Of a stretch of 50,699 nucleotides of DNA, positions 21,891 through 26,927 are shown piece by piece. The notes beneath the pieces are model-generated. The model was not told the DNA's origin. It did no database searches and saw only the letters and a program-made list of their open reading frames with translations. Positions within the stretch are counted from its first letter, which is position 1, and the number at the start of each line of letters is the position of its first letter. Source of the stretch: a phage; the sequence record PZ150740.1; one strand, given 5' to 3'. Made by a program: the position numbers and the translations under genes.

Positions 21891-21916
21891 GCCCCGCTTA
21901 TGCGGGGTTTTTTTTT
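21891..21916 (+). terminator. rho-independent terminator
   Basis: GCCCCGC-ttat-GCGGGG followed by T9. Confidence 0.6.
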
Positions 21917-21981
21917 GCACTTGAAAATGCTATTATCTGCATTATCATTAGCAAAAAGTGCTATTTAGGAGGATTTTACAA

Positions 21982-24612
21982 ATGGCGATTTACAGACAAG
22001 GCCAAGCGTCTATGGACGCGCAAGGTTATGTAACTGGTTACGATACAAAATGGCGTGAGCAATTAACATTGATTCGCCCAGGTGCAACTATTTTCTTTCT
22101 TACTCAACCTTTGCAAGCTGCTGTGATTACAGAGGTGATTAGCGATACAAGCATTCGCGCAATTACTACTGGCGGCGCGGTAGTCCAGAAGACAAATTAC
22201 CTGATCTTGCTTCATGACTCGTTGACGGTTGACGGGCTGGCGCAGGACGTAGCGGAAACATTGCGTTACTATCAAAGCAAGGAAACGGAGATTGCTGACG
22301 CGCTTGAATTTTTTAGAGATTTCGATCTTGATGGGTTGAAAGATCTTGTAAATCAGGTGAAACAAGGCGCTGAATCAGCAAAACAAAGCGCTAGTGCCGC
22401 AAAGACTTCTGAAACAAACGCTAAAACATCGGAAACTAATGCCAAAGCATCTGAAAATGCAGCCAATGCAAGTAAGAATGCGGCTAAAACATCGGAAACT
22501 AATGCTGCTAACTCGGCTAGTGCCGCAAAGACTTCTGAAACAAACGCCAAAACATCGGAAACTAATGCCAAAGCATCTGAAAATGCAGCCAATGCAAGTA
22601 AGAATGCGGCTAAAACATCGGAAACTAATGCTGCTAACTCGGCTAGTGCCGCAAAGACTTCTGAAACAAACGCCAAAACATCGGAAACTAATGCCAAAGC
22701 ATCTGAAAATGCAGCCAATGCAAGTAAGAATGCGGCTAAAACATCGGAAACTAATGCTGCTAACTCGGCTAGTGCCGCGAAGACTTCTGAAACAAACGCT
22801 AAAACATCGGAAACTAATGCTGCAAACAGTGCAAACAAGGCTAAAACAGAGGCTGATCGCGCAGCGGCTGCTGCTGGAAGCTCAGAGGCTCAGAATAGAG
22901 TGCCGTATGCTGGTGTAACATTACCTGCGCCTACTGGCGTAAGGGATATGCTCAAGCGGTTGCGCGATACTGTCAAAGGAGGATTCTGGCGCGTCGATGA
23001 TATTACGCAGTTCCCTTCTGGCGAGATGACGCCGTTCAGGTATGGTCCAGGGGTGTGCGGCGGCGCTGGTGACACATTTTTTGCGTTTAACGTTGACTAT
23101 CAGACCTCTCGCGTGAAGGTTTTCGCTGGAAACAATGCCGCGATTAACGGCTCATCTGGAAATGTGGGTGCCATTGAACTGGCGAAGCTGGGTGCTAACG
23201 GTGACGTGGCGATCGGAGACGGCGGGACAGGCGCATCGAACGACCAGGGAGCGCGCGCAAACCTTCAGGTCATGCATGAGCGCCGGGCAACGTTGGTTAG
23301 TGAAGACCTTAACATCCTTCAGGGTGATAAGGCTGGATTTTATTATACTAGCTTATCTGCCAACGCAACGCCGGAGCGTAATTATCCCGTTCAGGAAGCA
23401 GGTTGTCTACTTGTTCAGCGCACTGGCGCTAACGATCCTAAAAGCTGCATACAGACGTTTACAGGATACAATAGCGGGCGTCGTTTTATGCGATGGCTTA
23501 GTAACGCGACTACTGGCATCTGGTCGAAATGGTACGAGTTGTATAACGCGGGGTCGTCGCCGGAATATAACGCTTACGTGAGAGCTAAAAGCGGTGATCG
23601 AATCGTCGAAATGTTTGTAGGAGGCACGGATGTTGGCATTCGCAACCGCACGTCGCAGAAAGTGCTACAGCTGCGTGATGATGGAGGCCTTTCGTATGAC
23701 AACAAGCTGATCGCGTATAACGGACTTGTAGCCAGCGGCACCTTCGCTATGACCGTACCAAGCATTAAAGTTACAACCGCTAATGGCGGTTTTCGTATCG
23801 ACGGAACAGCATCAACAAACAACCAACCGCTGCACGTAACAGGGTACAACTCCGCAGGCACGCGTCTTTGGTTTTTAGGTAAAGATACTGGAACGAGTGC
23901 GTTATTTCTAAATGACATAACGAAAAGCAAGGTTGAACTTATCGATTCTGGGGTTGTGTTAGGTACGAAAGACTTTGCGGGAAAAGCATATGTACAGGCG
24001 GCGAGTTTAGAGATAGACCGACCGAGTGGTAAGTATTTCAAAATGCAGAACGACGGAAACTCATCACACCCTGCAAGTTTCAAATTGTGGGGGAACGGGT
24101 CAGATAGACCGTCTGTTATTGAGTGGGCTTTCGATAACGGCCCTGGGTGGGTTTTTTACGGTCAGTTAAATAAAGATAACTCAAAGCATCTTCAAGTTAA
24201 CGGCCCTGTAAATGCGACAGCATTCAATCAAGCATCTGACAGAGATCTTAAGGACAACATTGAGGAGATTGATAACGCAACTGAATCATTGCGCAAAATG
24301 AGCGGATACACTTACACGCTTAAGGAGAATGGTTTACCTTATGCTGGGGTAATTGCTCAAGAAGTAATGGAGGCAATACCGGAAGCTGTTAGCGGATTCA
24401 CTCGGTACACGGATCTTGCTGGTCCAACTAAGGATGGAAATCAGCTAGTTGGCGAGGAAAGATTCTTATCTGTTGATTATGGCGCTGTTACTGGATTGCT
24501 TGTGAAAGTATGCCGTGAAAGTGACGATCGCATAAGCAAACTTGAAAATGAGGTTGCAGAATTAAAAGATTTACTGTCAAAGCTAATCAACAATCCTACT
24601 ACTCTTAACTAA
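21982..24612 (+). CDS. tail fibre with tandem Ala/Ser/Thr-rich repeats and C-terminal intramolecular chaperone domain
   Basis: 42-aa repeat x3.4; C-terminal [13 protein letters not shown]...YAGVIAQEV...LENEVAELK typical of autocleaving chaperone domains. Confidence 0.8.
22390..22819 (+). repeat. intragenic tandem repeat, 126-bp unit, about 3.4 copies, near-identical
   Basis: Unit starts at 22390, 22516, 22642, 22768; only 1-2 substitutions between copies. Confidence 0.85.
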
Positions 24613-24618
24613 AAAAAT

Positions 24619-24644
24619 GCCCCGCAAATGCGGGGCATTTTGTT
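24619..24644. terminator. bidirectional rho-independent terminator
   Basis: GCCCCGC-aaat-GCGGGGC flanked by A-run and T-run, between convergent genes. Confidence 0.65.
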
Positions 24645-24645
24645 A

Positions 24646-25098
24646 TTAGAATGGTATATCATCGTCAAAGTCAATCGGAGGCTGATTGCTTTGCTGTGGC
24701 TGCTGTTGAGTGTTTTGTTGCTGTTGCTGTTGTGGTTGCCCCCAACCTCCTTGCGTTCGCTGTTGATATTGTTGCTGACTTTCCCCACGCTGGCTAAATA
24801 GCAAGTTTGCAAATCCGCCAGGCTGCACGGTGCTGTAAATCTTTCCGTTGTATTCTCGCGTTTCAACTCGCAAGGTATCGCAGGAAACAGAAATAACCTT
24901 GCCTACCTGGAACGCCTCAGCATACCAACCATTCAGGCCGTCTGTTTTCGCGTTAAAGAAAAATACATAGTTTGTATACTGCCAATTGCCTTCACGGTCT
25001 TTATATCGTTCGGAAAGCTCAACAACATATAGCGTGCTGCCGTTAGGCATTTGCTTTACTTTTGGCTCTTTTCGGATCTCACCTGTAATAACGTGCAT
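24646..25098 (-). CDS. ssb: single-stranded DNA-binding protein
   Basis: Gln/Gly-rich linker and acidic C-terminal tail DFDDDIPF; start adjusted to MHVITGEI after RBS. Confidence 0.85.
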   Translation of the reverse strand: MHVITGEIRKEPKVKQMPNGSTLYVVELSERYKDREGNWQYTNYVFFFNAKTDGLNGWYAEAFQVGKVISVSCDTLRVETREYNGKIYSTVQPGGFANLLFSQRGESQQQYQQRTQGGWGQPQQQQQQNTQQQPQQSNQPPIDFDDDIPF

Positions 25099-25112
25099 TT
25101 TGTTTTCTCCTA

Positions 25113-25140
25113 TGACAAAAGGGGCGCAAGCGCCCCGTTT
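25113..25140 (-). terminator. rho-independent terminator after Erf gene
   Basis: GGGGCG-cttg-CGCCCC followed by TTTTGT on minus strand. Confidence 0.5.
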
Positions 25141-25141
25141 A

Positions 25142-25798
<657 letters not shown>

Positions 25799-25871: not shown

Positions 25872-26927
25872 TCATAGATACTGCCTGAATTGAGCGCGTA
25901 CCCAATCAGGAGTATCAAGATCAATTTCTGGTTGCCCGTTTGCATACGAAGGCCATTCATCTAACTGTTGGCAAACGTTGAACTTGTTGATCACGCTCAT
26001 GTACTGGATGCGACCGATCTTCAATTGCTCAATGTTCATGCGGAATGCGAGCGGCAAGTAAGGCTCTTTCTTCTCTTGAGCAAGCAATCTCACAATTACT
26101 GGCCTTTCCTCGTCTGGATACGCCTTTTTAAATAAATCATGCTGCAAAGCCATTTTGAGATAATAGCCGTGATTGTAAGCCAGGCGCTGGAAGTCAACCG
26201 GATTTGCGCTAACCGTTGTTTTATAGTCAGTGATAATCACAGCTTCTGGATAGATGACTTCTTCATAAATCGGTCGGCCTTTTTCGTCGTAACCGTTAAT
26301 GATTGTGGCCTTTACATCCTTGTTTACGTCAACGTGATCAAGGCGCACTTTAACTTTTACGCCATTGATGATCCCGAATATTGACATTTCACGCTGCGCG
26401 GTTGGGCTATTCATGCAAGCATTATGCTCAGGTATTGCCTCAAGTACGCGCCGCATCGCTACACAGGCATCATAATCTTTCGCGTCGATTAGCTGCACGC
26501 CGTCCGCTGCGGCCTGGCATTCTGCCATCATTTCGATAAGCCACCATACATTGAGATCCTCACCGCACTTGTACAGCATTTCCAGCAATTCGGGGTATTG
26601 CTTACCCGTTGTACCTTTCAGGCCAAAAGATTTCAGCTTTGAGGCCAACGCCGTTTGACTTGTGATCAGATCTTTAAAATCATCCTGCGATGGTGCGCGG
26701 CGATATGTTTTTTCGAATAACTCCTTGCTTTCAAAATTGGTATGCGACTGCGTACCGAAAACAAGTGCCTTAGTTTCCTGGCGAGGCTTGTACTTCCAGT
26801 ACGCCGGGCAAGTGCTGTAAATCTCCGCCAAGCTGGAACCGCTGACGTATTCAGCAGTCCACGCGTTAGGATCATGATAAAGCTCATTGCTCATTTCTTC
26901 GCTGGTGTAGGCGTTAAAATCACTCAT
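25872..26927 (-). CDS. recombination exonuclease (PD-(D/E)xK family)
   Basis: Position upstream of Erf/SSB; D...(I)TDYK nuclease-like motif. Confidence 0.55.
   Translation of the reverse strand: MSDFNAYTSEEMSNELYHDPNAWTAEYVSGSSLAEIYSTCPAYWKYKPRQETKALVFGTQSHTNFESKELFEKTYRRAPSQDDFKDLITSQTALASKLKSFGLKGTTGKQYPELLEMLYKCGEDLNVWWLIEMMAECQAAADGVQLIDAKDYDACVAMRRVLEAIPEHNACMNSPTAQREMSIFGIINGVKVKVRLDHVDVNKDVKATIINGYDEKGRPIYEEVIYPEAVIITDYKTTVSANPVDFQRLAYNHGYYLKMALQHDLFKKAYPDEERPVIVRLLAQEKKEPYLPLAFRMNIEQLKIGRIQYMSVINKFNVCQQLDEWPSYANGQPEIDLDTPDWVRAQFRQYL

What the first reader, a model, noticed from the sequence alone, without database searches (positions are those of the whole stretch)
22390..22819. Near-identical 126-bp tandem repeats inside the tail-fibre gene
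A 126-bp unit encoding [42 protein letters not shown] is repeated 3.4 times with only 1-2 substitutions between copies, indicating recent expansion. Copy number could change by slippage or recombination and alter fibre shaft length. Such a repeat is also an assembly hazard, so the true copy number is uncertain.
Basis: seen in the sequence. Interest (0 to 1): 0.5.

Follow-up and report, generated by a model that had tools for sequence, protein, structure and literature searches.

The report
Recent heptad-block duplication in tail-fibre shaft
A T1-like coliphage has recently duplicated a 42-amino-acid block inside the helical stalk of its side tail fibre, roughly doubling stalk length; this is a real but ordinary way for phage fibres to evolve, and the exact copy number needs long reads.

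Summary
Window 22390-22830 holds three 126-bp units plus one 63-bp half unit, at 99-100% identity and without indels. The array lies in frame in the lateral tail-fibre gene (ATG 21982 to stop 24612) of a Warwickvirus-like Drexlerviridae phage.

Each unit encodes exactly six heptads of the form A-x-x-S-x-x-x. Ala and Ser are invariant at the two core positions in all 21 heptads. AlphaFold2 predicts one unbroken helix over aa 117-303. The segment matches coiled-coil stalks of T7 gp17 and T5-like LtfA.

Close relatives carry 1.0 unit (Poky, A16a) or 1.5 units (JLBYU41), and these are only about 94% identical to the window's units. The window's two extra units are therefore a recent, register-preserving expansion. 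They add 84 residues, about 12 nm.

No other sequence searched has two or more near-identical units, and the exact protein is not on record. Copies 2 and 3 are identical, and a 230-nt exact repeat lies at offset 126. Short reads therefore cannot fix the copy number; the substitution pattern only guarantees at least 2.5 units.

This is a new allele of a well-known kind, and its functional effect is untested.

The parts
21891..21908 (+). Terminator-like hairpin followed by a T-run, ending the upstream primase gene
   Evidence: 7-bp stem, 6 GC pairs, T9 tail; sequence.
21921..21948 (+). Sigma-70-like promoter candidate for the fibre gene (TTGAAA-16-TATCAT)
   Evidence: 10 of 12 matches. This is a consensus match only; the count in the region is not above the shuffled expectation.
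21966..21973 (+). Ribosome-binding site TAGGAGGA, 8 nt before the ATG at 21982
   Evidence: Sequence. Homologues are annotated from MAIYRQ, so the GTG at 21958 listed is not the likely start.
21982..24612 (+). Lateral tail-fibre gene (876 aa plus stop)
21982..22209 (+). N-terminal beta domain (aa 1-76), the conserved virion-attachment end
   Evidence: AlphaFold2 strands at 3-76. Residues 1-173 match Klebsiella phage depolymerase DpK2 7LZJ at E 4e-61. The BASEL paper reports that only the far N-terminus is conserved in the family (PMC8594841).
22327..22890 (+). Continuous alpha-helix (aa 117-303), inferred to be the trimeric coiled-coil shaft
   Evidence: Single-sequence AlphaFold2 gives a helix over residues 2-188 of aa 116-310 with mean pLDDT 93. 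The MSA model gives a helix at 116-224 with pLDDT above 90. The heptad register is continuous. Hits to T7 gp17 154-263 at E 3e-6 and DT57C LtfA.
22390..22515 (+). Repeat unit 1 (126 nt, 42 aa, 6 heptads); T at unit position 33
22516..22641 (+). Repeat unit 2, identical to unit 3
22642..22767 (+). Repeat unit 3, identical to unit 2
22768..22830 (+). Half unit (63 nt, 21 aa, 3 heptads), made of unit nt 1-30 plus 94-126. It is orthologous to the half unit of JLBYU41 and JLBYU26, which share the G at position 12.
22894..24234 (+). Distal part of the fibre (aa 305-751), the presumed receptor-binding region; it is mosaic among relatives
   Evidence: different phages match different parts (Poky, Dhillonvirus-type fibres, tonijn). 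No Pfam domain was found. The receptor-binding role is an inference.
24235..24609 (+). C-terminal intramolecular chaperone (Peptidase_S74) starting at the Ser752-Asp-x-x-x-Lys motif; expected to be cleaved off after trimerisation
   Evidence: Pfam PF13884 at E 1.8e-13. SDRDLK motif at aa 752. Cleavage is inferred from knowledge of the family.
24614..24641 (.). Strong hairpin (12-bp stem) right after the stop codon. It was called on the minus strand and probably acts as a bidirectional terminator shared with the convergent SSB-like gene.
25142..25795 (-). ERF-family single-strand annealing protein. This is context: a phage-encoded recombinase that could mediate unequal exchange between repeat units.
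   Evidence: Pfam PF04404 at E 7e-20. Its role in the expansion is an inference.
25872..26927 (-). PDDEXK-type exonuclease, partner of the annealing protein (context)
   Evidence: Pfam PF12684 at E 4e-13. Annotated as exodeoxyribonuclease VIII in JLBYU26.

Best explanation
The array is a real, evolutionarily recent, in-register segmental duplication inside the alpha-helical coiled-coil shaft of the phage's lateral tail fibre.

**Ancestral state (inferred).** The ancestor probably looked like JLBYU41: one 126-nt unit followed by a 63-nt half unit. That arrangement already provides about 53 nt of direct repeat 126 nt apart.

**Expansion (inferred).** Unequal homologous exchange or replication slippage between these repeats added one 126-nt unit and then a second. 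The phage's own ERF annealing protein and exonuclease, encoded 0.5 kb downstream, may have helped.

**Why it is tolerated.** The unit is 42 codons, exactly six heptads of A-x-x-S-x-x-x. Every gain or loss therefore keeps both the reading frame and the coiled-coil register, so the fibre should still fold and trimerise.

**Structural result.** The helical stalk is about 187 residues (about 28 nm). That compares with about 103 residues in JLBYU41 and about 82 in Poky. The distal receptor-binding part sits about 12-15 nm further from the tail tip.

**Function (inferred, not shown).** The extra length changes the reach and flexibility of a non-essential primary-adsorption fibre that probably binds surface glycans. 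The likely effect is modest or neutral.
For: **Repeat and frame.** establish the repeat, its frame and the differences between copies.

**Heptad register.** Ala is invariant in 21 of 21 heptads at one core position, and Ser is invariant in 21 of 21 three residues later. The register is continuous from about aa 116 to about aa 304.

**Helix.**
- The MSA model gives a helix at 116-224 with pLDDT above 90 over aa 120-210.
- The single-sequence model gives one helix over aa 117-303 with mean pLDDT 93.

**Solved homologues.**
- T7 gp17 residues 154-263 at E 3e-6, and DT57C LtfA.
- LtfA is described as a three-helix coiled coil (PMC10713586).
- The DpK2 N-terminal region is described as an extended triple helical bundle (PMC8552709).

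**Trimer-type fibre.** The S74 chaperone domain and the SDxxxK motif are present.

**Allele series.** Poky and A16a have 1.0 unit, JLBYU41 has 1.5, and JLBYU26 has two diverged units plus an insert and a half unit.

**Recency.** Identity is 99-100% within the array but 93-94% to orthologous units.

**Family pattern.** 30 of 120 homologues carry tandem repeats at 90% identity or more; all but one (period 30) have periods of 14 or 21 aa, and the window's own is 42. IMG/VR relatives show older 63-nt-period repeats at 75-89% identity in the same region.

**Recombination genes nearby.** ERF and PDDEXK genes lie just downstream.

**Precedent.** In-frame tandem duplications of variable copy number arose in a tail-fibre gene during experimental coevolution (PMC6365445).
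Against: - Trimeric coiled-coil packing was not modelled; only monomer predictions were possible. An Ala/Ser core is unusual for classical coiled coils.
- Copy number rests on one assembly. Copies 2 and 3 are indistinguishable.
- The allele was not found in INPHARED, IMG/VR, JGI metagenomes or as an exact protein.
- There are no data on fibre length, adsorption or host range.
- The order of events and the role of ERF are inferences.
- The C at unit position 33 also occurs in the half unit of JLBYU41 and JLBYU26. Gene conversion, rather than simple stepwise duplication, may therefore have contributed.
Confidence: 0.8

Rival explanations
1. The copy number is an assembly artefact. The phage truly has a repeat here, but the real number of units differs from 3.5, through collapse or over-expansion by a short-read assembler.
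For: - Units 2 and 3 are identical, and there is an exact 230-nt repeat at offset 126.
- A read or pair must span at least 358 nt (22422 to 22779) to count units.
- The allele is unique in every collection searched.
- The JLBYU09 record has Ns at exactly this repeat.
- One IMG/VR relative (L020) carries several 98-100% identical long tandem repeats, including a 147-nt duplication inside its ERF-like gene; another (L018) has a 318-nt one. These look like assembly duplications.
Against: - Three distinguishable unit heads exist: A12/T33 next to unique upstream sequence, A12/C33 internal, and G12/T33 next to unique downstream sequence. At least 2.5 units are therefore required unless the substitutions are errors.
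- Relatives show that natural alleles differ in whole or half units.
- Assemblers usually collapse such arrays rather than expand them (own knowledge).
Confidence: 0.15
2. The array is an adaptive length-tuning locus. Unit number changes at appreciable frequency in phage populations and is selected to match fibre reach to the thickness of the host's O-antigen or capsule layer.
For: - Multi-heptad duplications recur across the family.
- By a crude heptad count, the window's stalk (28 heptads) is longer than all 65 N-terminal homologues that could be scored (median 9, maximum 27).
- Tail-fibre tandem duplications were selected in all replicates of a coevolution experiment (PMC6365445).
- An annealing recombinase is encoded next door.
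Against: - There are no population data.
- With 126-nt units and only three copies, slippage should be far rarer than at microsatellites.
- Lateral fibres of this family are thought to be dispensable on rough laboratory hosts (PMC8594841).
- Two relatives have deleted most of the fibre, which argues for weak constraint rather than tuning.
- The between-copy differences are too few (2-3 sites, all synonymous) to test for selection.
Confidence: 0.1
3. The repeat serves something other than the fibre protein: an overlapping gene in another frame or strand, or a DNA-level or diversity-generating element.
For: Open frames of 161 aa (minus strand, 22353-22838) and 174 aa (+2 frame, 22394-22918) cover the array.
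Against: - These open frames scale with copy number. They are 168-185 codons in the window but 63-104 in Poky and JLBYU41, so they are by-products of a stop-free unit.
- No second copy of the unit exists elsewhere in the window that could act as a template repeat.
- All differences between copies are synonymous in the fibre frame.
Confidence: 0.02

Closest known systems
Coiled-coil proximal shafts of phage fibres: T7 gp17 (PDB 7BOZ), T5-like LtfA of DT57C (8HQZ), Klebsiella phage RAD2 depolymerase DpK2 (7LZJ)
   Same: - Sequence-level similarity of the Ala/Ser/Asn/Lys/Glu-rich heptad region: E 3e-6 to gp17 154-263 and E 4e-6 to LtfA 46-221.
- The N-terminal 173 aa match DpK2 at E 4e-61.
- The papers describe these segments as three-helix coiled coils or triple helical bundles projecting from the tail.
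- The architecture of N-terminal anchor, helical stalk, distal binding or enzymatic part and C-terminal module is shared.
   Different: - Those proteins have diverged heptads rather than near-identical 42-aa blocks.
- The DpK2 stalk was not modelled at atomic level.
- The distal domains are unrelated (beta-helix depolymerase in DpK2).
Lateral tail fibres of Drexlerviridae and Tempevirinae (Poky gp30, JLBYU41_68, JLBYU26_83, Henu8 gp51; BASEL 'TC7'-type fibres with a coiled-coil N-terminus and an S74 C-terminus)
   Same: - Same locus, between the primase gene and the SSB/ERF/exonuclease genes.
- Same N-terminus, same unit sequence and same S74 chaperone.
   Different: They carry 1.0 or 1.5 units (JLBYU26 has two diverged units), against 3.5 near-identical units here.
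Experimentally evolved in-frame tandem duplications in tail-fibre genes (Enterococcus phage EfV12-phi1, PMC6365445; T4 gp37 duplications of Tetart et al. 1996, cited there and recalled from memory)
   Same: In-frame tandem duplication inside a fibre gene. In EfV12-phi1 the copy number was variable within the population and only long reads resolved it.
   Different: - That unit is 1.8 kb, lies near a carbohydrate-binding domain and was shown to be selected during coevolution.
- Here the unit is 126 nt of pure coiled coil, with no phenotype data.
Segmented coiled-coil fibres with variable segment number (T4-type fibritin gpwac, Letarov et al. 2005) and variable-length stalks of trimeric autotransporter adhesins such as YadA (own knowledge; a weak PDB hit to a GCN4-adhesin fusion, 2YNZ, at E 0.9)
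   Same: Trimeric fibrous stalks whose length evolves by gain and loss of repeat blocks that preserve periodicity.
   Different: No demonstrated homology. The comparison is by analogy only.

Membership tests
Alpha-helical coiled-coil shaft of phage tail fibres | Seven-residue periodicity with conserved small or hydrophobic residues at the a and d positions, without register breaks | tested here: met
   Ala in 21 of 21 and Ser in 21 of 21 heptads at positions spaced 3 and 4 apart. The register is continuous from about aa 116 to 304. TRF also detects the 21-nt sub-period.
Alpha-helical coiled-coil shaft of phage tail fibres | Long uninterrupted alpha-helix | tested here: met
   one helix over aa 117-303 with mean pLDDT 93; helix 116-224 with pLDDT above 90 over aa 120-210. 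These are predictions, not experiments.
Alpha-helical coiled-coil shaft of phage tail fibres | Sequence similarity to structurally solved coiled-coil fibre segments | tested here: met
   T7 gp17 154-263 at E 3e-6; DT57C LtfA 46-221 at E 4e-6. The structural descriptions come from the papers.
Alpha-helical coiled-coil shaft of phage tail fibres | Parallel homotrimer | not testable with these tools
   Only monomer prediction was available. Trimerisation is inferred from the C-terminal S74 intramolecular chaperone and from the homologues.
Drexlerviridae lateral tail fibre | Conserved far-N-terminal attachment region | tested here: met
   the first 340-434 nt are 90-97% identical in many Drexlerviridae; invariant N-terminal columns. 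PMC8594841.
Drexlerviridae lateral tail fibre | Locus between the replication genes (primase) and the recombination genes | tested here: met
   Window ORFs and Pfam hits match the annotated synteny in Poky, JLBYU26, JLBYU41 and Henu8.
Drexlerviridae lateral tail fibre | Binds O-antigen or another surface glycan as a primary, non-essential receptor | not testable with these tools
   The source paper itself states that this has never been directly demonstrated for the family (PMC8594841).
Peptidase_S74 intramolecular-chaperone fibres | S74 domain with the Ser-Asp-x-x-x-Lys autocleavage motif | tested here: met
   PF13884 at E 1.8e-13, 51 bits against a cutoff of 22. SDRDLK at aa 752.
Simple-sequence contingency locus (phase variation by frameshift) | Short repeat unit (1-9 nt) whose copy-number change shifts the frame or alters promoter spacing | tested here: not met
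   The unit is 126 nt (42 codons), so any copy number stays in frame.
Diversity-generating retroelement target | A template repeat elsewhere, with adenine-specific differences from the variable repeat | tested here: not met
   no other copy of the unit in the window. The differences between copies are T/C and A/G synonymous changes. A reverse transcriptase was not specifically searched for.
Selected tandem duplications in tail-fibre genes (EfV12-phi1 type) | Copy-number heterogeneity within a population and a link to infectivity | not testable with these tools
   No reads or phenotypes are available. Precedent only.

The most novel reading that the evidence does not exclude
The array is a fibre-length 'rheostat'. 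ERF-mediated unequal exchange makes unit number vary within lysates, and selection on hosts with different O-antigen or capsule thickness picks the stalk length. Shaft length, not only the tip, would then be a host-range determinant in T1-like phages.
Probability: 0.08. Interest if true: 0.55.

Novelty: new member of a known kind. Interest (0 to 1): 0.2.

Why it matters
**Practical.** Anyone using this genome should not trust the fibre length, or the tail-fibre protein sequence, until the array has been spanned by long reads or PCR. The same region is ambiguous or deleted in related deposited genomes.

**Biological.**
- This is a clean natural example of how fibrous phage proteins change length: by blocks that are whole multiples of the heptad, so both the reading frame and the coiled-coil register survive.
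- The natural allele series of 1.0, 1.5 and 3.5 units on an otherwise similar fibre could be used to test whether stalk length affects adsorption to smooth hosts.

It does not reveal a new mechanism.

Tried and rejected
- **Independent sightings of the allele.** None were found.
  - The junction pattern gave no hit in IMG/VR or JGI metagenomes.
  - Exact-protein look-ups with both possible starts found nothing.
  - A two-unit query against 50,697 phage records found no record with two or more near-identical units.
- **Large protein database search with aa 1-340.** It returned only proteins under 600 aa, because the candidate list was saturated by shared words. It missed even Poky-type full-length fibres. 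It was useful for N-terminal homologues and repeat statistics but not for counting alleles.
- **Foldseek of the N-terminal model against the PDB.** No hit reached E 0.001. The small beta domain gave weak, uninformative matches to ATPase crown domains.
- **MSA-based AlphaFold2.** Confidence was low beyond aa 224. I attribute this to the alignment having no homologue with the extra units, because the single-sequence run gave a confident helix across all copies.
- **Overlapping-gene reading of the antisense and +2 open frames.** Rejected.
- **DGR or template-repeat reading.** Rejected.
- **Literature searches for heptad-block duplication in tail fibres.** These found no directly matching report. 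Letarov 2005 is not held in the library.
Full report
**Observation**

Tandem Repeats Finder reports 22390-22820 with period 126, 3.4 copies, 99% matches and no indels (score 841). Nested weaker periods of 63 and 21 nt are also reported. It is the only strong tandem repeat in the whole window.

Full units begin at 22390, 22516 and 22642.
- Units 2 and 3 are identical.
- Unit 1 differs by one synonymous T/C at unit position 33.
- The terminal piece from 22768 has G at position 12 and T at position 33.

BLAST of the unit against the window gives E 1e-61 to 1e-63 for the three copies and nothing elsewhere. The same search shows an internal 23-nt repeat at unit positions 31-53 and 94-116.

The terminal piece is therefore a 63-nt half unit: unit nt 1-30 joined to nt 94-126. 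It encodes [10 protein letters not shown]+[11 protein letters not shown]. The array is 22390-22830, 147 codons in all.

**The gene**

The array lies in frame in the ORF 21958/21982-24612. The likely start is the ATG at 21982.
- It is preceded by TAGGAGGA (21966-21973).
- A promoter-like TTGAAA-16-TATCAT lies at 21921-21948.
- The terminator of the upstream primase gene lies at 21891-21908.
- Homologues are annotated from MAIYRQ.
- A 12-bp-stem hairpin follows the stop codon at 24614-24641.

The first 25 kb of the window is 96% identical over 93% of its length to Escherichia phage Poky (Drexlerviridae, Tempevirinae, Warwickvirus). Megablast hits to the gene are annotated as (lateral) tail fibre. 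PHROG tail-fibre families match. Pfam finds a C-terminal Peptidase_S74 chaperone domain at E 1.8e-13, with the SDRDLK motif at aa 752.

The locus sits between the primase gene and the SSB-like, ERF and PDDEXK-exonuclease genes, as in the relatives.

The BASEL paper notes three things about Drexlerviridae lateral fibres (PMC8594841).
- They are conserved only at the far N-terminus.
- They probably bind O-antigen as a non-essential primary receptor.
- This role has never been directly demonstrated.

**What the repeat encodes**

Laid out in sevens, every one of the 21 heptads has Ala at one position and Ser three residues later. The same register runs unbroken from about aa 116 (L/V at the core positions) to about aa 304. 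A proline at aa 308 follows.

AlphaFold2 with a 49-sequence alignment predicts a beta domain (aa 3-76), a helix at 83-113 and a long helix at 116-224 with pLDDT above 90 for aa 120-210. Confidence collapses after aa 224. I attribute that to the alignment lacking homologues with the extra units, because a single-sequence run of aa 116-310 gives one continuous helix over aa 117-303 at mean pLDDT 93.

By sequence, the region matches three proteins with solved structures.
- The shaft of T7 gp17, residues 154-263, at E 3e-6.
- LtfA of the T5-like phage DT57C, residues 46-221, at E 4e-6.
- Klebsiella phage RAD2 depolymerase DpK2, whose first 173 residues match the N-terminal 173 aa at E 4e-61.

The papers describe LtfA as a three-helix coiled coil projecting from the tail tip (PMC10713586). 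They describe the DpK2 N-terminal region as an extended triple helical bundle that could not be modelled (PMC8552709). [quoted passage not shown]

The array is thus part of the helical stalk. The trimeric state is inferred, not tested.

**Comparison with relatives**

At the same place the relatives carry the following.

| Phage | Array content |
|---|---|
| Poky, A16a | one unit |
| JLBYU41 | one unit plus the half unit |
| JLBYU26 | two diverged units separated by unrelated heptad sequence, plus the half unit |
| Henu8 | only a distantly similar stretch |

The relatives' units are 117-119 of 126 nt identical to the window's units, whereas the window's copies are 125-126 of 126 identical to each other. 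The half unit shares its G at position 12 with the half units of JLBYU41 and JLBYU26, so it is old and orthologous.

The window therefore has two extra full units that arose after divergence from these phages. At least two events are needed, and the last left no substitution. The C at position 33 of units 2 and 3 also occurs in the relatives' half unit, so some gene conversion is possible.

No phage in INPHARED has two near-identical units. The junction is absent from IMG/VR and JGI metagenomes. The exact protein is not on record.

**Family pattern**

Among 120 homologues of the N-terminal region, 30 contain tandem repeats at 90% identity or more. All but one (period 30) have periods of 14 or 21 aa, whole multiples of the heptad; the window's own period is 42.

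By a crude heptad-run measure the window has 28 heptads. The 65 homologues with the N-terminal anchor have a median of 9 and a maximum of 27. This sample is biased to proteins under 600 aa.

IMG/VR relatives show older 63-nt-period repeats at 75-89% identity in the same region. Block duplication in heptad multiples is therefore how this stalk has been built repeatedly.

**Mechanism and consequence**

The 1.5-unit ancestral arrangement offers about 53 nt of direct repeat 126 nt apart. Unequal exchange or slippage between these would add whole units. An ERF annealing protein and a PDDEXK exonuclease are encoded just downstream. Their involvement is an inference.

Because the unit is 42 codons, or six heptads, both the reading frame and the coiled-coil register are preserved at any copy number. 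At about 0.15 nm per residue, the predicted helix of about 187 residues is about 28 nm. That compares with about 15 nm in JLBYU41 and about 12 nm in Poky. The effect on adsorption or host range is unknown.

In-frame tandem duplications in a tail-fibre gene were selected in every coevolution replicate of an Enterococcus phage. Their copy number varied within the population and only long reads resolved it (PMC6365445). Such changes can therefore matter. Nothing here shows that this one does.

**Reliability of the copy number**

The longest exact repeat at offset 126 is 230 nt, starting at 22423. Counting units requires spanning 22422 to 22779, which is 358 nt.

There are three distinguishable unit heads: A12/T33 upstream, A12/C33 internal and G12/T33 downstream. 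These imply at least 2.5 units. The third unit cannot be verified from sequence alone.

**Alternatives rejected**

- The antisense and +2 open frames across the array shrink in proportion in phages with fewer units, so they are by-products of the repeat.
- There is no second copy of the unit that could serve as a DGR template.
- The unit is too long, and in frame, for frameshift-type phase variation.

**Verdict**

This is a previously unrecorded allele of a known kind of variation, with a legitimate assembly caveat. Interest is low to moderate.

Noticed in passing
L041 4001-5017 (Logan SRR23255629 contig, 46 kb); corresponds to window 22300-22402 joined to about 24005: A related phage encodes a 338-aa fibre (P0003) that is 100% identical to the window up to the first 13 nt of the array. 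It then jumps directly to the SLEIDRPSG... segment just before the S74 chaperone. This in-frame deletion removes the stalk and the distal domain, and one endpoint lies inside the repeat.
   Followed up: partly
L040 1630-1725 (Escherichia phage JLBYU09, OK272487.1): The deposited genome has runs of N exactly at the half unit of the same repeat. The fibre gene there is split into 208-aa and 95-aa ORFs, with the array apparently joined to the C-terminal chaperone region. This indicates either a mixed population or an assembly problem at this repeat.
   Followed up: partly
window 21958-21981: The mechanical ORF start (GTG 21958) lies between the promoter-like site and the ribosome-binding site (its last codons cover the latter). 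The real start is almost certainly the ATG at 21982, behind TAGGAGGA.
   Followed up: yes
window 21891-24641: The fibre gene looks like a stand-alone transcription unit embedded among replication and recombination genes, away from the other structural genes. It has an upstream terminator, its own promoter-like site and a downstream hairpin shared with the convergent SSB-like gene.
   Followed up: partly
window 22353-22838 (-) and 22394-22918 (+, other frame): Long open frames of 161 and 174 aa overlap the array. They are stop-free by-products of the repeat and scale with unit number in relatives.
   Followed up: yes
window 24683-24739: Weak 18-nt and 24-nt tandem repeats lie in the Gln-rich C-terminal tail (…QPQQQQQQNTQQQPQQ…) of the SSB-like gene 24646-25149 (-). 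That gene has no Pfam hit at E 0.001.
   Followed up: no
L020 1987-2528, 4014-4370, 4380-4673; L018 2088-2723 (IMG/VR contigs): Two IMG/VR relatives carry 98-100% identical long tandem repeats of 2-3 copies, with periods of 271, 120, 147 and 318 nt. One is a 147-nt duplication inside the ERF-like gene, and the L020 fibre gene appears truncated. These look like assembly duplications rather than biology.
   Followed up: partly
L002 (MG065636.1) and row H14: 'Campylobacter phage A16a' and 'A15b' (records marked UNVERIFIED) are Tempevirinae genomes about 89% identical to this coliphage fibre gene. The stated host is doubtful.
   Followed up: no
P0036, P0022, P0040: Partial homologues of this T1-like fibre are deposited under Staphylococcus epidermidis and Salmonella assemblies. 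This probably reflects phage contamination or carry-over in bacterial sequencing projects.
   Followed up: no
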